A stretch of DNA of 57,401 nucleotides, taken from positions 1 through 57,401 of the IMG/VR virus record IMGVR_UViG_3300035704_000010; one strand, given 5' to 3'. Positions 31,249-56,781 of this stretch are shown here, in pieces (position 1 is the stretch's first letter; every line of letters starts with the position of its first letter). Position numbers and translations under genes: made by a program. Source of the stretch: a virus (lineage: Duplodnaviria; Caudoviricetes). The notes below the pieces were generated by a model. That model was given only the letters and a program-made list of their open reading frames with translations. It was not told where the DNA came from and searched no databases.

Positions 31249-31971
31249 CTATGCCGCCGGCTGGCTCGCCGCGCTCTTACGAGCTCGGAAATCGGCCAGC
31301 ACGTCGCGGAAAGGTCGGGCAGTCTCTAGCGCGATCGCTACGACTTCGAGAGCGTCTGAGGTCGAAAGTTTTTCCGCCGCGAGAGTGGCGCTCGTCTTTG
31401 CGGATTTGCGGCCGGTGACGTGGATCGGGCGGTTCACCGTCGCGCGCCGGCCGGGGCCAGCCGATCGCACGGGGCGATGCTCGCAGAATTCGAGGTGACA
31501 CTCGCGGCAGATCCAGGTTCCGGCTTTGCCGGTGCGTCGCCGTCCGGACTTCGAGCCGCTGTGCTTCGCCGGCTTCTTACCGACGTCCATGAGCTGCTCG
31601 GTCTCGCGGGTGCGCCGCTCTTCGGCTGACATGCGCGGCCGCTTGCCCTTGGGCACGGCCGCCTCTTTGGCGACGAACTCCTCGGCTTGACTTCGGGTCC
31701 ATCCCGGTCGGCTGCGCATCAAGGCGCCGACGCGCTTTTCCCGATCGGCGGTTTCGTTGGCCGCGATCAGCTCGCGGTCGGCGACGTCCTTGCGCTGGAT
31801 CCCGCCGGCGAAATGGGCGACCGGGTCGCCCCCGCGAGCCTTCGCCGCGGCGGCGTGCGAAAGCCCAATAGCCGCTGACGAGTCGTCAAAGTACGACTCC
31901 CGATTCTTTGTCAGCCCGTCGCTCAAAGCGTTCTCCGACGAGATATTCGAGGCTACTAACCGCCGGGACAT
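31249..31971 (-). CDS. Basic hypothetical protein in the late-regulator position
   Basis: 240 aa with CRECHLEFCEH; last early gene before the late promoter. Confidence 0.6.
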   Translation of the reverse strand: MSRRLVASNISSENALSDGLTKNRESYFDDSSAAIGLSHAAAAKARGGDPVAHFAGGIQRKDVADRELIAANETADREKRVGALMRSRPGWTRSQAEEFVAKEAAVPKGKRPRMSAEERRTRETEQLMDVGKKPAKHSGSKSGRRRTGKAGTWICRECHLEFCEHRPVRSAGPGRRATVNRPIHVTGRKSAKTSATLAAEKLSTSDALEVVAIALETARPFRDVLADFRARKSAASQPAA

Positions 31972-32099: not shown

Positions 32100-32295
32100 C
32101 CCAATGCCGTCTAAACGTTCCTTGTTCTACCGCGGGCCGCTTGCGAGGCGGTCCTTTTGAACTACGCGCTTCGTCGGGTGACCGGCGCCGGGCACTTGCC
32201 CAACTCCTCGCGCGGCGGGACTCGAACCCGCAACCTCTTGCCCGCGTTGCCGCGGAAATCTTTGACTGACCCTTCGTCGTGCGCCGGCCGATGCC
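32100..32295 (-). ncRNA. Candidate structured RNA containing a tRNA-like T-arm
   Basis: GCGGG-TTCGAGT-CCCGC, CCGCG-GCAA-CGCGG and GGGC-AAGT-GCCC hairpins in an intergenic gap. Confidence 0.35.
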
Positions 32296-32308: not shown

Positions 32309-32704
32309 TCAGCGCTGCCGCTCCTCGCGAAGCGGACGCTCGGGTTGGTAGTCGGTACAGAAAATGCCCGTGTCCTCGATCGCCGGATAACGCGACCCGG
32401 GCACGTCAGGGTACCGCGCATCGTACGAGCAGTTTTGGCAGCCGCCCTCGCTGGCAAAGCTCGAGCACATAAACGGGCGCTTCTCATAGGTCGTGCAGCT
32501 CCGATTCACTCGATCGAAGGCTTCGCACTCATACGTCCCCCACTCCCAAGTCGCAGGCCAAACGAGACGAATCAGTTTCTCGGCTTCGTCGGGATCGAAG
32601 TTGTACTGCTTTGGCGTTGTGGTGACGAGCGACTCGATGACATGCTCGAGGCGAGGTTGAAGATGAATGACGCGGCAGCAGTCGCCCGGGCAGGTTTTGA
32701 TCAC
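32309..32704 (-). CDS. YkgJ-like Cys-cluster protein
   Basis: CPGDCC...C..FD.....CTTYEKRPFMC. Confidence 0.65.
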   Translation of the reverse strand: MIKTCPGDCCRVIHLQPRLEHVIESLVTTTPKQYNFDPDEAEKLIRLVWPATWEWGTYECEAFDRVNRSCTTYEKRPFMCSSFASEGGCQNCSYDARYPDVPGSRYPAIEDTGIFCTDYQPERPLREERQR

Positions 32705-52266: not shown

Positions 52267-52611
52267 GTGCCCGACGACGAGAAGCGCCGCGTCCTGCTTT
52301 CCGCTGCGTACTCGCCGCGGGGGATGGCCGAATATCTGGCGTACCGCGACGATCTCGACGAGCGCGTACGCAAGGGTTGGCTAAACGAAACGGAAGCGCA
52401 CATACTCAGCTCGATTCGAATGCAGGGAATCATCCTCGAAGGTGGCGGCGACCAGGCGATTCGGCGCCCCAAGTGCGAGAAGTGCGGCGAGTTGGCGGCG
52501 ATCATTGGCCGCGCCGCTCAAACGTTCCGCTGCCCGTGCTCGCCGGATCTCGAGCAATCGATCACCGATAGGGTGCGAGCGGCAAAGGACGAAGCCTCCC
52601 GGCCATCGTGA
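52267..52611 (+). CDS. Small zinc-ribbon protein coupled to the integrase
   Basis: CEKCG...FRCPCSP; GTGA overlap with the integrase. Confidence 0.65.
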   Translation: MPDDEKRRVLLSAAYSPRGMAEYLAYRDDLDERVRKGWLNETEAHILSSIRMQGIILEGGGDQAIRRPKCEKCGELAAIIGRAAQTFRCPCSPDLEQSITDRVRAAKDEASRPS

Positions 52612-54116
52612 ACGGAACCGCCTGGGGATACTACGCCGTCAGCTCGAGCCCGCAGGAAGCGACCTTGGCCGATCAGGAGGCGTGGGCTAAGGACGTCGCG
52701 CGCGCGCGCGGCTGGGAGATTACGCGCTCTTTCAGCGGCACGGCGTCGGGCCGGCTGGGCGTTCGAACGATCCTCGAGCAGCTGATCGCCGAACTGACGG
52801 CTATCCCAAAAACGCAACGCCCCGATCGCATCCTGCTGATCCGCCTCGATCGCACCGGCCGCGTCGCGCTCGAGACGATCGCCGCGCTGGCCCGAATCAA
52901 GAAGCTGGGGGTCATTCTGCACACGCGGACCGACGGCGACGTGAAACTCGAGACGGCGCTCGATACGCTGCGCCCGATCTTCGAGCTGGTATCGGCCGAG
53001 ATCGAGAATTCCGGCCGCAGCGACAAGATGCGCGCGGTGCACGCGCGGTGGCGGGAAGCCGGCAAACACCTCGGGCCGCCACCCTACGGCACCGAAAAGG
53101 ACGCCGAGCGTCGGCTGATCGCCAAAGAGCCGCAGGCGAGCTTCGTGCGCCGCGCGTTCGAAATGCGCGCCACCGGTGCCGGGTTCAAGCGGATCGCACG
53201 CGACGTCGGCCGGTTCGCGCCGCCGCAGGGCACGTACGCCGGCCGGCCGCACGCGTCGGCCTGGCACCCGAATACCGTCGACAAGCTGCTATCATGCCGC
53301 AGCTATCGCGGCCTGGTCGTCGACGCGGATCTATGGGACCTCGTGCAGACGGTCCACAATCCGGACTTCCGGACGCTGCGCGCGAGCCGTGTCTATCCGT
53401 GGCCGCTCAGCGGCGTCCTGCACTGCTGGTGCGGGTGGACAATGGGCGGTGTCGCGTCGGGCAAGGAAGGGCGGCGCGTCCGATACTACAGCTGCCGGCA
53501 TCCGCGATATCACGGCGACGACGCCCGGCCCAGCATCCGCGCCGATCGTGCCGAGGGTTGGTTCGTCGACGGCGTGCGCCGGCTGGCCGGCGACCCCCAG
53601 GTTTTGCGCGACTATCGTGCGAGCGCGGCGCGCGCGACCATGGGCGTTCAACGTGAAACGCTCGCCGCGGCGCGCGCCGAGCTGGCCGACGTCGATCAAA
53701 AGCGCCAGGCCGCCTGGAACCTGCAATCGGACGGCCGGATCGCCGCCGCCGAGCTGGCGCTTCGACTCGACGAACTGCAGCGCCGGCGGAGCGAACTTCT
53801 CGCGCGCATCGTCGACGCCGAGCGCGAAGTGGCCGTGGCCGCCGCACACGACGTGATCGCGGACGACGCCGAGACCCTGTTCGCTGCGGCCGCGGATCTT
53901 TGGGCGACGTCAACGTGGGAGGAGCAGAAAGAATTGAGCCGGCTGGTCGCGCTGGCCGCGGGCGGCATCTCGATGGCACCTGACGGCGAATTGCGCTTTG
54001 GCGCCGACGATCCGCAAGGGCTGCCGTTAGGCGAGACTTCTTCGACAAGGCGGGTGGTCTATCGGCCGCTGGTACTTGGGGCGGGCGGCGTGATCGAAAG
54101 CAGCCTGCGGCCTTAA
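52608..54116 (+). CDS. int: Large serine recombinase (integrase)
   Basis: YYAVSS...Q, SG, RLDRTGR, GPPPYG, recombinase domain, LSGVLHC.CG..M, YYSC zinc ribbon, coiled coil. Confidence 0.9.
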   Translation: MNGTAWGYYAVSSSPQEATLADQEAWAKDVARARGWEITRSFSGTASGRLGVRTILEQLIAELTAIPKTQRPDRILLIRLDRTGRVALETIAALARIKKLGVILHTRTDGDVKLETALDTLRPIFELVSAEIENSGRSDKMRAVHARWREAGKHLGPPPYGTEKDAERRLIAKEPQASFVRRAFEMRATGAGFKRIARDVGRFAPPQGTYAGRPHASAWHPNTVDKLLSCRSYRGLVVDADLWDLVQTVHNPDFRTLRASRVYPWPLSGVLHCWCGWTMGGVASGKEGRRVRYYSCRHPRYHGDDARPSIRADRAEGWFVDGVRRLAGDPQVLRDYRASAARATMGVQRETLAAARAELADVDQKRQAAWNLQSDGRIAAAELALRLDELQRRRSELLARIVDAEREVAVAAAHDVIADDAETLFAAAADLWATSTWEEQKELSRLVALAAGGISMAPDGELRFGADDPQGLPLGETSSTRRVVYRPLVLGAGGVIESSLRP

Positions 54117-54212
54117 AACGTCGCTGCGGCTTCCTTATAGGACGCGGCGCCCGGCTGGAATTGAACGAGGACCGCCTTGCGACGATCCTCGTGGTAGCCC
54201 TTCGCTTAGGGC

Positions 54213-54241
54213 AGGACCCTAACGTATCTTGACTTTAGCAC
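54213..54241. repeat. 29-bp imperfect direct repeat, copy 1
   Basis: AGGACCCTAACGTATCTTGACTTTAGCAC; 22/29 identical to 54532-54560. Confidence 0.6.
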
Positions 54242-54277
54242 GGGTAACGACTCCGTATCAAGGCCGCTGGGTCGACA

Positions 54278-54351
54278 CGCGCCGGGCGGGACTCGAACCC
54301 GCACCTGAGACTTCGTTAGGGTCCCGCTCTATCCGATTGAGCTACCGGCGC
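54278..54351 (-). tRNA. tRNA-like gene: Arg-type body with AAC anticodon, no encoded CCA
   Basis: GCGCCGG/CCGGCGC acceptor, GCTC/GAGC D-arm with GGA(20), GCGGG-TTCGAGT-CCCGC T-arm, loop CT-AAC-GA, C31-A39 mismatch. Confidence 0.8.
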
Positions 54352-54427
54352 TCACCTTGGTTACATCATACCGCGCCATCATGCCATATGGGTGGCACGA
54401 ACGTTTGCGATGCTGAAAAGTTTTTGC

Positions 54428-54466
54428 AAAAACGAAAGAGGATCGGGGGCCTATTCCCCGATCCTC
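54428..54466 (-). terminator. Intrinsic terminator
   Basis: GAGGATCGGGG-AATAGGC-CCCCGATCCTC followed by TTTCGTTTTT. Confidence 0.7.
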
Positions 54467-54531
54467 ATCCCGTGGCTCCGGGAGCCCCCAGCCTGCTAAG
54501 TCATGTCATCGTCTGATCTCCGTACAGTAAG

Positions 54532-54560
54532 AGGATCCTAACGTGACTCGGTCTTAGCAC
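54532..54560. repeat. 29-bp imperfect direct repeat, copy 2
   Basis: AGGATCCTAACGTGACTCGGTCTTAGCAC. Confidence 0.6.
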
Positions 54561-54578
54561 CCGTTTCCCGGAAACCGG

Positions 54579-54617
54579 AAAAGCAAAACGCCCCGCCGGG
54601 CATGCCAGCGGGGCGTC
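54579..54617 (-). terminator. Terminator at the end of the late/lysis operon
   Basis: ACGCCCCGCTGG...CCGGCGGGGCGT followed by TTTGCTTTT. Confidence 0.75.
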
Positions 54618-54654
54618 GCGTAGGCGTGCGCACTTGTGCGCACCGAGCGGGAGT

Positions 54655-54966
54655 CTACAGCCCGAGCAGCTGCTTCGCCAACGGCGACGACTCGCGCAGG
54701 GCGAGCACGACCACCTTGTCGGCCTGGCCGTCGAAATCCGCGGCGACGGTTCCGACCAGCGCGGCCTGGTCATTCACGAGGTTGGCGTAGGACGCTTCGA
54801 TCTTCGTCAGCGTCTGGAGTACGCCGCCGGCGAGCGCCAAGCCGGGATCGACGGTTTCGATGGCCGCGAGAACGGCGATGCCGTCGGCGATGTCGTTCGT
54901 GATCGAGTCGGTGGGCTTCCACTGGGAAACGAGCACCGCGAGGGCAGCGATAATTTGCGCAATCAT
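54655..54966 (-). CDS. Hypothetical protein (lysis cassette)
   Basis: 103 aa with AAGGAAAGG RBS. Confidence 0.6.
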   Translation of the reverse strand: MIAQIIAALAVLVSQWKPTDSITNDIADGIAVLAAIETVDPGLALAGGVLQTLTKIEASYANLVNDQAALVGTVAADFDGQADKVVVLALRESSPLAKQLLGL

Positions 54967-55017
54967 GATTTGCGTCGGACCTTTCCTTGATGGAGGGTGT
55001 ATTTTGCTCGAACTAGA

Positions 55018-55329
55018 CTACGTTTTTTGAGGGGCGACGATCGGTTCCGTCGACGTGGTCGTGACGACGGTTGCGCCAGTCAGCGTGCCGTCGGGATGCG
55101 CAACGGCCACGTTTCCGGTCTTCGGATTGATCGCAACCGAAGGCGCCGGTGAATTGAGCAGGTCGTAATACGTCTTGACTAAGCCGGCGATCGCGACGAG
55201 AACCGACAGGACGCCGGCGATCCAGGTCGCGTACTGCGGCAGAAGGCTGCCCAGCGCCGTTGCAACGCCCGCGAGCGCACCCGACGCAATAAGCGTCACG
55301 ATAAGGTAGATCGGCGGTTTCTGATTCAT
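55018..55329 (-). CDS. Putative holin (2 TM)
   Basis: MNQKPP followed by two hydrophobic helices; end of the late operon. Confidence 0.6.
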   Translation of the reverse strand: MNQKPPIYLIVTLIASGALAGVATALGSLLPQYATWIAGVLSVLVAIAGLVKTYYDLLNSPAPSVAINPKTGNVAVAHPDGTLTGATVVTTTSTEPIVAPQKT

Positions 55330-55565
55330 GGGGATTGTGGTCCTTGCAAGGGATGCCGGCATCCGGCCGGTGCGGTCGCCGGCGAGAACGCCGGAAAGTG
55401 AAAGCGCGGGCGGTAGAGAGCGCGCTGCATTGCCCGCGCCTCGCGGCGGATCGCGTCGACGCGAATGACGCGGACGGCAATGGTGACCGGATGCGGCAAT
55501 GCGCAGCGCGGCAACTGCGGTGGCGCAGCGAGGCTCAAAGCCGTCGCCAGGATGATCGCGAGCAA
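55326..55565 (-). CDS. Small exported protein (spanin-like?)
   Basis: Signal peptide-like leader; GAGGAGG RBS. Confidence 0.4.
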   Translation of the reverse strand: MLAIILATALSLAAPPQLPRCALPHPVTIAVRVIRVDAIRREARAMQRALYRPRFHFPAFSPATAPAGCRHPLQGPQSP

Positions 55566-55575
55566 TGCGCCTCCT

Positions 55576-55899
55576 CTACGGGTGGTGGAAGATCAAGGCC
55601 AGCGTGACCGTCGTTGCTAACGAGAGCGCGGCGATGACGATGCTGACTATCGCGATTGCACTTTGCCGGTGCGCCGGTTTTGTCAACGCAGCGGTTTGCG
55701 CGTCGACCTGCTCGGCATCTTCGCGGTCGGATTCGTTCTTTGTAAGGGAATCGACTTTGCCTTCGAGCGTGCGCGTGCGGTCGTACAGTCCTTTTAGATC
55801 GCCAACTTCGCGGGTCAAGCGCTCGATCAGCACCGTATTCGCCGCAGTTATTTTCCCGTGCTCGATCAGCTTATCCAGATACCATTGTTCGTTGTTCAC
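55576..55899 (-). CDS. Coiled-coil protein with C-terminal TM (holin/hemolysin-XhlA-like)
   Basis: Heptad pattern followed by a hydrophobic C-terminus. Confidence 0.55.
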   Translation of the reverse strand: MNNEQWYLDKLIEHGKITAANTVLIERLTREVGDLKGLYDRTRTLEGKVDSLTKNESDREDAEQVDAQTAALTKPAHRQSAIAIVSIVIAALSLATTVTLALIFHHP

Positions 55900-56281
55900 C
55901 CGCCGCGACCCCCGTCCTGAAAAACGTGCAATAAATCCGGGTGGGATGCTCGAGCGGAATGATCGATCGCCCGTCTTGAGCTGCCGACAAGACGAAAAAC
56001 TTTCGGCCTACGAGAGTCGACGTGTTTCCCGATTCGATTCTGACCGAACCCTCGAGTACGGCGACGACGACCTCCGTGTTTACCGGGGGAAGGAATGGAA
56101 TATGGTCGCCGTCCTTTGAGCGGGCGACCATGATGACGAGGTCCTCCGTCAGCTCAGATACCGACGGTTGCCCGATTGTCCACCCAGGGATGTCAACGTC
56201 GGCGATCTGCTCGCGCATCCTATTGAGGTCGTCGAGATACCGTCCGATTTGCTCAGCTGGGTCTAATTGTTTGTCGGTCAT
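55871..56281 (-). CDS. Cupin-like protein
   Basis: EVVVAVLEGSVRI pattern; ATG 56281. Confidence 0.5.
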   Translation of the reverse strand: MTDKQLDPAEQIGRYLDDLNRMREQIADVDIPGWTIGQPSVSELTEDLVIMVARSKDGDHIPFLPPVNTEVVVAVLEGSVRIESGNTSTLVGRKFFVLSAAQDGRSIIPLEHPTRIYCTFFRTGVAAGEQRTMVSG

Positions 56282-56781
56282 TTGTCCGTCCCGCGCGCGC
56301 AAGGCGCCAGCACCGAGAGTACGATCAGTTGCGAAATACTAAGGCGGCGATCGATAAACTCGATCAGCTTGACGAGGTCGGCATTCTGCACCCGAATGCC
56401 GCGATCACTTGGGGTAAGCGGCTGGAACCTGGAGAGCGCGAGTGACGTGGCCATCGTCTCGCCGCCGCCGTGAATCGACTTCTCTGAGCACCGGCCTAGC
56501 GGCAGCGACGGGATCCCTTCGATCTTGACGCGATCGTCGAAAAAGACTTCGGCCTTCTCTGCGACCACGAGAGATTGCACGTCGCGCTGCGTGAGCTCGT
56601 CGATGAAGATGCGTCCGGGTCCGTAATGACGCGTCGACGGCACAAGCCGTTCGGTCATCGGGACGCGATAATGGCCGGCGGCGAGCACGGCGTTCGCGGA
56701 CTTCACTGAAATGCGCTCGCGCCCCGAGTCGAGCACGCGAATCGTTCCGGCGTCGACGATTAGATGGTACACGGCTGCCAC
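56278..56781 (-). CDS. L,D-transpeptidase-fold paralogue lacking the catalytic Cys
   Basis: SIHGGG...QPLTPSDRGIRVQNADL; collinear with the 29889-30437 product. Confidence 0.6.
   Translation of the reverse strand: MAAVYHLIVDAGTIRVLDSGRERISVKSANAVLAAGHYRVPMTERLVPSTRHYGPGRIFIDELTQRDVQSLVVAEKAEVFFDDRVKIEGIPSLPLGRCSEKSIHGGGETMATSLALSRFQPLTPSDRGIRVQNADLVKLIEFIDRRLSISQLIVLSVLAPCARGTDK

What the first reader, a model, noticed from the sequence alone, without database searches (positions are those of the whole stretch)
54145..54560. tRNA-like RNA flanked upstream and downstream by repeats antisense to its own anticodon arm
Seen: two 29-bp direct repeats (54213-54241 and 54532-54560; 22/29 identical; both CTAA-N12-TTAG) bracket the tRNA. 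On the tRNA strand they contain CGUUAGG(G/A)UCCU, complementary to the anticodon arm GGGACCCUAACG. The downstream copy can form 16 of 17 pairs with AGAGCGGGACCCUAACG. The downstream region also folds into several stems (ACGAGGAUCGUC-GCAA-GGCGGUCCUCGU; GCCCU/AGGGC) and ends in a second T-loop/acceptor-like string, UUCAAUUCCAGCCGGGCGC. Established: P4 CI RNA and P1 C4 RNA are processed, structured antisense RNAs with complementary targets on both sides in their own transcript. Inference: a real tRNA scaffold has been repurposed as an antisense/switch RNA, convergent with the integrase. Alternatively the repeats are DNA sites (attP arms or operators).
Basis: partly seen in the sequence, partly recalled or inferred. 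Interest (0 to 1): 0.7.

Follow-up and report, generated by a model that had tools for sequence, protein, structure and literature searches.

The report
tRNA-like gene with cognate antisense sRNAs
A soil phage carries an odd extra tRNA-like gene flanked by two small-RNA genes whose first bases are antisense to that tRNA's anticodon arm, and the same co-varying trio-type module turns out to be conserved in the chromosomes of its likely hosts, pointing to an undescribed RNA-against-tRNA control system.

Summary
In detail: two 29-bp repeats (22/29) flank a tRNA gene and are antisense to its anticodon arm; nothing like them occurs elsewhere in the 57-kb phage genome. The repeats are not passive targets or att/operator sites. 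Each is the -10 box, start site and 5' seed of a small-RNA gene on the tRNA strand (promoter, seed, hairpin, terminator hairpin). The decisive evidence came from host genomes: in a clade of Eremiobacterota, 25 of 81 tRNAs examined have a 9-17 nt exact complement 52-66 nt downstream, behind a sigma-70-type promoter whose key bases are invariant. The seed co-varies with each genome's own anticodon arm (19-pair intermolecular helix: 90.8% paired, 14 pairs with double changes, 0/500 shuffles; cognate duplex -33.7 vs -21.5 kcal/mol, 0/10,000 permutations). The tRNAs concerned are extra, non-canonical genes (tRNA-Arg-like body, Val/Ala/Ser-type anticodons); one host genome holds a full canonical set besides. 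Best reading: an antisense sRNA that sequesters or destroys a tRNA-like RNA; the phage carries its own orthogonal copy (AAC/GUU) beside the integrase. Expression and physiological role are untested. No Rfam family and no paper found describes it.

The parts
52608..54116 (+). large serine recombinase (integrase), convergent with the RNA module; context, not shown to act on the module
   Evidence: Pfam Resolvase 2.2e-12, Zn_ribbon_recom 6.1e-7, Recombinase 9e-4
54145..54168 (-). remnant of the 3' end (T loop + 3' acceptor strand) of a tRNA-like gene; overlaps the tail of sRNA-down
   Evidence: up to 18 of 23 identical to 3' ends of host module tRNAs; 3 of 2000 random window 24-mers reach this
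54151..54263 (-). sRNA-down gene: -35 TTGATA 54261-54256, 18-nt spacer, -10 TAAAGT 54237-54232, predicted start about 54225, seed 54224-54202 antisense to tRNA positions about 21-37, hairpin 54212-54197, GCUAC 54198-54194, 12-bp GCAA-loop terminator-like hairpin 54192-54165 with a poor U tail. First-reader repeat 54213-54241 = -10 box + start + seed
   Evidence: promoter scan; model R1 50.5 bits, E 1.5e-14; alignment with host sRNA genes; fold; duplex with the tRNA-like RNA -49.6 kcal/mol, cofold -83.7 vs -66.3 apart
54278..54351 (-). non-canonical tRNA-like gene, anticodon loop CUAACGA (AAC), C31-A39 mismatch, tRNA-Arg-like D arm and acceptor, G73, no encoded CCA
   Evidence: closest host genes are module 'Val(GAC)' tRNA-likes, best 87%
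54432..54568 (-). sRNA-up gene (weaker paralogue): -10-like TAAGAC 54556-54551 behind TG, no -35, predicted start about 54544, seed 54543-54532 (10 Watson-Crick + 1 G-U of 12 with the anticodon arm), hairpin 54486-54474, intrinsic terminator 54466-54438 + U run. First-reader repeat 54532-54560 = -10 box + start + seed
   Evidence: model R1 24.1 bits, E 2.5e-6, model positions 17-115 only; terminator scan; fold; cofold gain only -2.5 kcal/mol
54587..54617 (-). intrinsic terminator of the upstream minus-strand gene block (54655-56781), which separates that operon from the RNA module
   Evidence: terminator scan: 13 pairs, 10 G-C, U-rich tail

Best explanation
The locus is a three-gene RNA module on the minus strand: a non-canonical tRNA-like gene flanked by two small-RNA genes (sRNA-up, sRNA-down). 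Each sRNA starts, a few bases after its own -10 box, with a seed that is antisense to the anticodon loop and stem of the tRNA-like RNA; sRNA-down goes on to match the D stem and positions 7-13. Shown: the architecture, its homology to a chromosomal module of Eremiobacterota, and co-variation of seed and anticodon arm. Inferred: the exposed anticodon loop meets the unstructured 5' seed, pairing spreads into the stems to a duplex of about 19-26 pairs that is more stable than the cloverleaf, and the tRNA-like RNA is thereby kept from folding and working, and probably handed to a double-strand RNase. So the sRNA is a dedicated negative regulator (antidote) of an extra tRNA-like RNA. The phage carries a private, orthogonal version (anticodon AAC, both seeds GUU, against GAC/GUC in most hosts) in the accessory-gene position between integrase and the end of the late/lysis block. 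What the tRNA-like RNA does when free is not known.
For: (1) Architecture in the phage: promoter-like site TTGATA-18-TAAAGT with TG on the minus strand ending 7 nt before the seed; two minus-strand terminators; both copies match a model built from host sRNA genes, and nothing else in the window does. (2) Host homologues: in 57 loci from the phylum, 25 of 81 tRNAs have an exact complement of 9-17 nt to their own anticodon arm starting 52-66 nt downstream on the same strand; of the other 56 only 3 reach 9 nt, at other distances. (3) Co-variation: on 15 aligned modules a 19-pair tRNA x sRNA helix is 90.8% paired (shuffled 75.5%, 0/500), 14 pairs change on both sides, 49 such cells against 14.2, partners slid by 1-3 columns give 32-43%. 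Alignment-free: own arm against own downstream region -33.7 kcal/mol, against others' -21.5 (sd 4.6); cognate ranks first in 18 of 27 and in the top three in 26 of 27; 0 of 10,000 permutations; opposite strand -18.1. Anticodon changes are tracked: GAC/GUC, CAC/GUG, AAC/GUU. (4) Separate transcription unit: promoter-like site in 25 of 27, terminator-like in 22 of 27; TTGA of -35 and positions 1, 2, 6 of -10 invariant in 15 of 15 while the rest vary. (5) Strand: the tRNA strand folds better than its complement in 25 of 27, mean -7.75 kcal/mol; the phage 12-bp hairpin needs two G-U pairs that are C-A on the other strand. (6) The tRNA-like RNA keeps a cloverleaf: 94% paired, double changes in all four helices, yet is extra: genome G205 has 45 tRNAs with canonical Val GAC/TAC/CAC, Ala and Ser, and the module tRNA has the lowest score over cut-off, 47.8 bits. 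(7) Specificity: the 14-nt seed target occurs once in 3.2 Mb of G205, plus its own sRNA gene; in the phage the exact 11-mer occurs only at the three sites; both phage sRNAs prefer the phage arm to all 26 host arms (-30.7 vs -18.3; -17.4 vs -13.2) and cofolding with sRNA-down gains 17.4 kcal/mol.
Against: No expression data: the one run holding this DNA is a DNA run kept as contigs. All host loci come from metagenome bins of one clade, so rows are related and shuffle controls overstate significance. Counts use 15 of 27 modules, those that align. A fair test for RNA-level pairing is weak: in fixed windows of 8 positions either side of the exact core, G-U 65 against A-C 45, p 0.07; the 51 vs 10 is biased by its stopping rule. 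Short-tract gene conversion between close inverted repeats could keep copies alike without function. sRNA-up has no -35, its -10 lacks the final T, and pairing gains only 2.5 kcal/mol. sRNA-down's hairpin has a poor U tail, so its 3' end is open. No terminator lies between the tRNA-like gene and sRNA-down, so both may also be made as one precursor. Which partner controls which, and any cleavage, is inference only.
Confidence: 0.68

Rival explanations
1. One transcript, acting in cis: the antisense segments are leader and trailer of the tRNA-like precursor. They fold back on its 5' half and control its maturation or termination; no free sRNA matters. This also covers the first reader's version, in which the tRNA-like RNA is the regulator and the flanking copies are its targets, as with P4 CI or P1 C4.
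For: No terminator between the tRNA-like gene and the downstream segment; the minimum-energy fold of tRNA plus trailer is the long fold-back, z -5.15; complementary copies lie on both sides on the same strand; in sRNA-up the region after the seed can pair with the 5' arm of its own terminator (14 nt, 79%, pair I5), which would allow an anti-terminator switch.
Against: A promoter with invariant key bases sits between tRNA and seed in 25 of 27 modules; sRNA copies occur without a tRNA-like gene in front (L040 second copy, L043:1315-1427, L064:69-177); two terminators separate sRNA-up from both neighbours; no gene lies downstream on that strand in the phage; no match to any Rfam family.
Confidence: 0.14
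2. Neutral relics: inverted partial duplications of a tRNA gene, kept alike by gene conversion or recent origin, without function.
For: The antisense segment is formally an inverted copy of tRNA positions 7-41; further tRNA debris lies in the same genome (54145-54168; 32207-32291); the fixed-window G-U excess is not significant.
Against: The copy is conserved with promoter, hairpin and terminator across at least 27 loci whose anticodon arms differ; identity is confined to 9-17 nt tracts while the D-loop part in between has diverged and keeps its own hairpin by double changes (GCUC/GAGC, GUUC/GAAC, GCCC/GGGC), a pattern selection explains better than conversion.
Confidence: 0.1
3. DNA sites: the repeats are bound as DNA, as attP arms of the serine integrase or as operators of the phage repressor.
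For: They lie within 100-450 bp of the integrase stop; each has CTAA-N12-TTAG symmetry; relatives of the integrase sit next to tRNA-Ile genes in 8 of 13 host loci.
Against: The same element is conserved in host chromosomes beside a Dus gene (12 of 24 loci) with no integrase in view, and follows each genome's tRNA-like sequence, which a protein site would not; no copy lies in the repressor/early region or anywhere else in the phage; no 48-bp imperfect palindrome of the kind serine integrases use stands out (best 14 of 24 in the locus, 17 elsewhere); the CTAA/TTAG symmetry is simply -10 box TAAAGT/TAAGAC plus the codon-like part of the seed.
Confidence: 0.05

Closest known systems
P4 CI RNA (seqA/seqB/seqC) and P1/P7 C4 antisense RNA (recalled; one search gave only listings that mention P4 CI RNA)
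   Same: A small structured phage RNA with a tRNA-like look whose exposed sequence is complementary to segments on both sides on the same strand; specificity lies in a short co-evolving pairing.
   Different: There the flanking copies are targets within one transcript and pairing blocks expression of downstream replication or antirepressor genes. Here the flanking copies carry their own promoters and terminators, nothing lies downstream, the central RNA is a full cloverleaf, and the module is chromosomal in the hosts. No Rfam match.
Base-pairing bacterial sRNAs with a 5' seed and an intrinsic terminator (recalled class, e.g. RybB/MicC type), and cis-adjacent antisense antidotes of type I toxin-antitoxin loci
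   Same: Own promoter, seed at the very 5' end, internal hairpin, terminator hairpin with U run; one dedicated partner encoded next door.
   Different: The partner is not an mRNA but a tRNA-shaped RNA, and the seed meets its anticodon loop; the complement extends to 19-26 pairs.
T-box riboswitch (recalled)
   Same: An RNA reads a tRNA through codon-like pairing with the anticodon; the seed contains the matching codon (GUC, GUG, GUU, GCU).
   Different: T-box pairs with 3-4 bases of a folded tRNA and senses its 3' end to control a downstream gene. Here pairing runs through loop and stems, must unfold the tRNA, and no gene follows. No T-box hit.
RNA-only toxin-antitoxin pairs (type VIII; CreT, an RNA said to sequester a rare tRNA; recalled, reviews seen only as listings)
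   Same: Two adjacent non-coding RNAs, one able to neutralise the other; tRNA supply as the point of attack.
   Different: No toxicity shown here; in CreTA the antidote works through Cascade on a promoter, not by pairing with a tRNA.
Non-canonical or mistranslating extra tRNAs (review PMC7609411, listing and abstract start only)
   Same: An extra tRNA gene whose body and anticodon belong to different amino-acid families.
   Different: None is reported, as far as my five searches show, with a dedicated co-varying antisense sRNA gene.

Membership tests
tRNA (Rfam RF00005) | Cloverleaf scoring above the family's gathering score | tested here: met
   57.9 bits against 29; on 15 module genes 94% of cells paired with double changes in all four helices
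tRNA (canonical decoding isoacceptor) | Anticodon loop closed by a 31-39 pair, U33, purine 37; body and identity elements fitting the anticodon; needed to complete the genome's set | tested here: not met
   Phage: C31-A39 mismatch. Hosts: pair 31-39 unpaired in 6 of 15; C at 33 and U at 37 in many; 'Ala' members lack G3-U70, 'Ser' members lack the long arm; all share a tRNA-Arg-like acceptor and D loop (identity rules recalled). G205 has canonical Val, Ala and Ser tRNAs besides
Independent base-pairing sRNA gene | Own promoter at a fixed distance before the seed | tested here: met
   25 of 27 modules; TTGA and T,A,T of the -10 invariant in 15 of 15; phage sRNA-down TTGATA-18-TAAAGT. sRNA-up has only an imperfect extended -10
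Independent base-pairing sRNA gene | Intrinsic terminator at the 3' end | tested here: inconclusive
   Terminator-like in 22 of 27 by a crude rule; clear for sRNA-up; sRNA-down has the homologous hairpin but tail UUCAAUUCC
Independent base-pairing sRNA gene | The RNA is made and pairs with its partner in cells | not testable with these tools
   No RNA run holds the locus
P4 CI / P1 C4 immunity RNAs | Targets lie in the same transcript and pairing controls downstream genes | tested here: not met
   Terminators and promoters separate the parts; the only thing downstream on the minus strand is the antisense of the integrase gene
P4 CI / P1 C4 immunity RNAs | Sequence and structure match to the described RNA family | tested here: not met
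   No hit up to E 10 in 53500-55200 other than tRNA and chance matches elsewhere; whole window: tRNA only
T-box riboswitch | Stem I specifier, T-box bulge and a regulated downstream gene | tested here: not met
   No Rfam T-box hit in phage or 5 host loci; no downstream gene
Serine-integrase attP or repressor operator | Imperfect palindrome of about 40-50 bp, or repeated sites in the control region; sequence independent of neighbouring RNA genes | tested here: not met
   No outstanding palindrome; no further copies; the element follows the tRNA-like sequence in hosts. The true attP was not located
RNA-RNA toxin-antitoxin pair | One RNA toxic alone, neutralised by the other; antidote less stable | not testable with these tools
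   Only hints: every non-canonical tRNA-like gene seen has a cognate sRNA (28 of 28, counting L047 and L059), while sRNA copies occur alone

The most novel reading that the evidence does not exclude
An RNA-only toxin-antidote or immunity system in which the harmful partner is a tRNA mimic: a tRNA-Arg-bodied RNA with a valine-type anticodon that, when free, enters ribosomes at abundant GUN codons uncharged or wrongly charged (stalling, alarm signalling or misreading), and is held in check by a short-lived antisense sRNA that unfolds it. Hypervariable, co-evolving seed/anticodon-arm pairs would then be specificity groups, and the phage's private AAC/GUU pair a lysogen-borne addiction, exclusion or abortive-infection device.
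Probability: 0.15. Interest if true: 0.92.

Novelty: new variant of a known kind. Interest (0 to 1): 0.8.

Why it matters
Antisense RNAs are known to control mRNAs, plasmid primers and phage immunity transcripts, and T-box leaders read tRNA anticodons, but a dedicated, separately promoted small RNA that co-evolves with, and can fully unfold, a tRNA-shaped RNA has not been described in anything my searches reached (Rfam). It would add tRNA-like RNAs to the targets of bacterial riboregulation, give a purpose to a family of 'wrong' tRNA genes that annotation pipelines call Val, Ala or Ser, and offer naturally orthogonal RNA pairs. Its presence in a temperate phage next to the integrase suggests a role in phage-host conflict. 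The module is small (about 300 bp) and the prediction is sharp, so it can be tested directly with transcripts and compensatory mutants.

Tried and rejected
Relatives of the phage: none in IMG/VR by integrase, by the neighbouring 103-aa protein, or by DNA patterns of the tRNA, the repeats or the sRNA promoter; in GenBank phages only tRNA-level matches, 8 records, none covering 80%. Closer integrase homologues (55-63%) lie on contigs I could not fetch. Loci found through the integrase (27 loci) share no DNA with the intergenic region. Sequencing runs: one holder, DNA, kept as contigs, possibly the source; no RNA holder listed; contigs show no alternative joint in the locus, so neither expression nor attP could be read. 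First idea, a tRNA-Arg(ACG) derivative with an inserted base, came from 77% matches in 5 genomes; the wider search showed closer 'Val(GAC)'-type module genes, though the Arg-like body remains. Inversion switch joining the plus-strand half-copy to the tRNA 3' half: rejected by hand, the acceptor strands would not pair. attP as a palindrome: nothing stands out. Short matches to host coding DNA are chance. Relaxed ARAGORN calls at 54146-54219 are too weak to count. RNAalifold found no consensus pairs on alignment A2, so model R1 is sequence-only and misses the second module subtype (L038, L041, L044, L047, L059, L068). Search outside the phylum failed for lack of a handle. No supplementary files were consulted.

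Full report
WHAT THE WINDOW IS. The window is one whole virus record of 57,401 bases with direct terminal repeats. It encodes a large terminase subunit, a portal, a replication initiator, a RecE-like exonuclease and a repressor (PHROGs), and a large serine recombinase at 52608-54116 (+) (Pfam). Relatives of that integrase (38-62% identity) were found in 13 genome loci, 11 of them titled Eremiobacterota, Vulcanimicrobiota or Cybelea, so the host is most likely of that phylum. The finding lies in the 538-bp gap between the integrase and a block of five small minus-strand genes (54655-56781).

ARAGORN calls a tRNA-Val(AAC) at 54278-54351 (-) and Rfam gives 57.9 bits. The two 29-bp repeats are 22/29 identical. 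Their consensus, with up to three mismatches, is found nowhere else in the window, with none expected by chance. The 11-mer GGAYCCTAACG occurs exactly three times, twice on the plus strand and once on the minus strand inside the anticodon arm. The downstream copy belongs to a longer inverted repeat, 23 nt at 83%. A fold of the tRNA with its trailer prefers that long pairing to the cloverleaf (z -5.15, 0 of 200 shuffles).

NO HELP FROM PHAGE RELATIVES. I found no related phage. Integrase and neighbour-protein searches of IMG/VR gave nothing, DNA patterns gave nothing, and GenBank phages matched only at tRNA level. The 27 loci reached through the integrase share no DNA with the gap. In 8 of the 13 genome loci a tRNA-Ile(GAT) gene follows the integrase gene on the same strand. 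That concerns the integrase family, not this module.

THE TURN: HOST GENOMES. A DNA search of 401 genomes of the phylum with the gap gave tRNA matches of up to 87% identity. In several genomes the match ran about 50 bases beyond the tRNA's 3' end. Read out, these loci share one layout on the tRNA strand:
- the tRNA gene, then about 20 bases;
- a sigma-70-type promoter (TTGACG, 17-18 bases, TAnnnT);
- six or seven bases, then a segment exactly complementary to that genome's own anticodon arm;
- a small hairpin, the bases GCUAC, and a terminator hairpin with a U run.

The phage's downstream repeat is this promoter's -10 box plus the start site and the complementary segment. The scan tool had already marked TTGATA-18-TAAAGT there. 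The upstream repeat is a second, poorer copy of the same element, followed by its own hairpin and a clear terminator. A sequence model built from 21 host and the 2 phage copies hits the window only at 54151-54263 (50.5 bits) and 54432-54568 (24.1 bits), both on the minus strand. The same model also finds small-RNA copies with no tRNA in front of them. One host locus (L043) has the phage's order: sRNA, tRNA, sRNA.

HOW GENERAL AND HOW SPECIFIC. I examined 57 host loci (L038-L095 without L042, which comes from a genome flagged as unpublished). ARAGORN finds 81 tRNAs in them.
- 25 have an exact complement of 9-17 nt to their anticodon arm starting 52-66 nt downstream.
- Of the other 56, three reach 9 nt, at other distances.

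For the following counts I used 27 modules: the phage, those 25 without L065 (identical to L063), and L047 and L059. L067, a canonical Arg tRNA without the promoter, was dropped.
- A promoter-like site lies before the seed in 25 of 27, and a terminator-like site after it in 22 of 27.
- In the 15 modules that align well, TTGA of the -35 and the first, second and sixth bases of the -10 never vary while the bases between do.
- The model finds the element in 22 of 151 genomes sampled from the phylum. It does not detect a second subtype (-10 TACCAT, terminator directly after the seed), so this is a lower bound.

CO-VARIATION.
- On the 15 aligned modules I wrote a 19-pair helix between tRNA columns and small-RNA columns. 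90.8% of cells pair, against 75.5% after shuffling (0 of 500). 14 of 19 pairs change on both sides, with 49 such cells against 14.2. Sliding the partner by one to three columns drops pairing to 32-43%.
- Without any alignment, each arm binds its own downstream region at -33.7 kcal/mol on average and other genomes' regions at -21.5. The cognate is best in 18 of 27 and among the best three in 26 of 27. No permutation out of 10,000 does as well.
- The anticodon itself is tracked: GAC with GUC, CAC with GUG, and in the phage AAC with GUU in both small RNAs.
- Caveats: the rows are related genomes, so these controls overstate independence. An unbiased count of G-U against A-C mismatches beside the core is only 65 to 45 (p 0.07).

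WHICH STRAND, AND WHAT KIND OF tRNA. The tRNA strand of the small-RNA region folds better than its complement in 25 of 27 modules. The phage's 12-bp hairpin is perfect only on the minus strand, where two pairs are G-U. The tRNA genes keep a cloverleaf with double changes in every helix, so they are made to fold as tRNAs. They are not ordinary isoacceptors, however.
- All share a tRNA-Arg-like acceptor stem and D loop whatever their anticodon.
- Many have C at position 33 or U at 37, and pair 31-39 is open in 6 of 15.
- The 'Ala' members lack G3-U70 and the 'Ser' members lack the long arm (the identity rules are recalled).
- Genome G205 has 45 tRNAs, including canonical Val GAC, TAC and CAC and the Ala and Ser sets. 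The module gene is an extra one with the lowest score over cut-off.
- Its 14-base seed target occurs nowhere else in that genome.

MECHANISM. Shown: the architecture, the homology and the co-variation. Inferred: the unstructured 5' seed meets the exposed anticodon loop, and pairing spreads into the anticodon and D stems.
- For the phage, the tRNA-like RNA alone folds at -32.7 kcal/mol.
- With sRNA-down the pair reaches -83.7, against -66.3 for the two apart.
- sRNA-up gains only 2.5 kcal/mol.

Such a duplex abolishes the cloverleaf and is long enough for a double-strand RNase. I therefore read the small RNA as a dedicated brake or antidote for an extra tRNA-like RNA. Both phage small RNAs prefer the phage arm to every host arm in the sample, so the phage pair is orthogonal. 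Its place, between the integrase and the end of the late block and behind two terminators, is where temperate phages usually keep accessory genes (recalled).

RIVALS.
It does not fit the conserved promoter or the orphan small-RNA copies.
- Neutral debris kept alike by gene conversion cannot be excluded outright. It does not explain a promoter, hairpin and terminator kept across loci whose arms differ.
- DNA sites for the integrase or the repressor are unlikely. The element follows the tRNA-like sequence in host chromosomes, 12 of 24 times beside a Dus gene and without an integrase in view. No suitable palindrome or further copy exists in the phage.
- The true attP was not found. The 3'-end remnant at 54145-54168, 29 bases after the integrase stop, is a candidate worth mapping.

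KNOWN OR NEW. Rfam has no family for the small RNA. Five full-text searches returned nothing that describes a small RNA aimed at a tRNA-like gene's anticodon arm. I saw listings and abstract openings only and read no paper. I file it as a new variant of antisense riboregulation with a new class of target. The boldest reading left open is an RNA-only toxin-antidote or immunity pair built on a tRNA mimic.

LIMITS. There are no expression data. All host evidence comes from metagenome bins. The function of the free tRNA-like RNA is unknown. Locus L042, from a genome flagged as unpublished, shows the same layout, but no count or claim rests on it.

Noticed in passing
window 32207-32291 (-), in the 340-bp gap between minus-strand genes 31249-31971 and 32309-32704: A second tRNA-like remnant: 19 bases (32214-32232) identical to the T arm of the tRNA-like gene; ARAGORN at 80% threshold draws a weak 'SeC(tca)' with a long extra arm. 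Model R1 finds no sRNA beside it.
   Followed up: partly
L004, L005, L006, L007, L008, L010, L011, L012 (also L020): Relatives of the serine integrase (about 40% identity) lie directly upstream of a tRNA-Ile(GAT) gene on the same strand in 8 of 13 genome loci, as close as 59 bases, which suggests that this integrase family targets the tRNA-Ile promoter region. No antisense element follows those tRNAs.
   Followed up: partly
L040:1843-1905 and 2143-2260: About 60 bases of the 3' end of the Dus gene are present twice, flanking the second tRNA-like + sRNA module, as if that module had been inserted with a copy of its target; modules also stand in tandem (L040, L064).
   Followed up: no
module loci L039-L075: A tRNA-dihydrouridine synthase (Dus) gene is the neighbour in 12 of 24 module loci, 11 times convergent downstream and once divergent upstream; whether this is mere synteny or a link to D-loop modification is open.
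   Followed up: partly
L015:3001-4471: The closest integrase relative in a genome (62% in the best segment) is split over at least two frames, so it looks like a decayed prophage remnant; no tRNA beside it.
   Followed up: no
window 53935-53962: The only run holding this DNA has two contigs that overlap by 28 bases here, inside the integrase gene, at a GC-rich internal repeat (53940-53966 vs 54063-54089); probably an assembly-graph branch, not biology.
   Followed up: no
window 55018-55362, 55576-55899 (-): Small membrane-type proteins (no Pfam match) just upstream of the module on the minus strand look like a lysis cassette by composition only.
   Followed up: no
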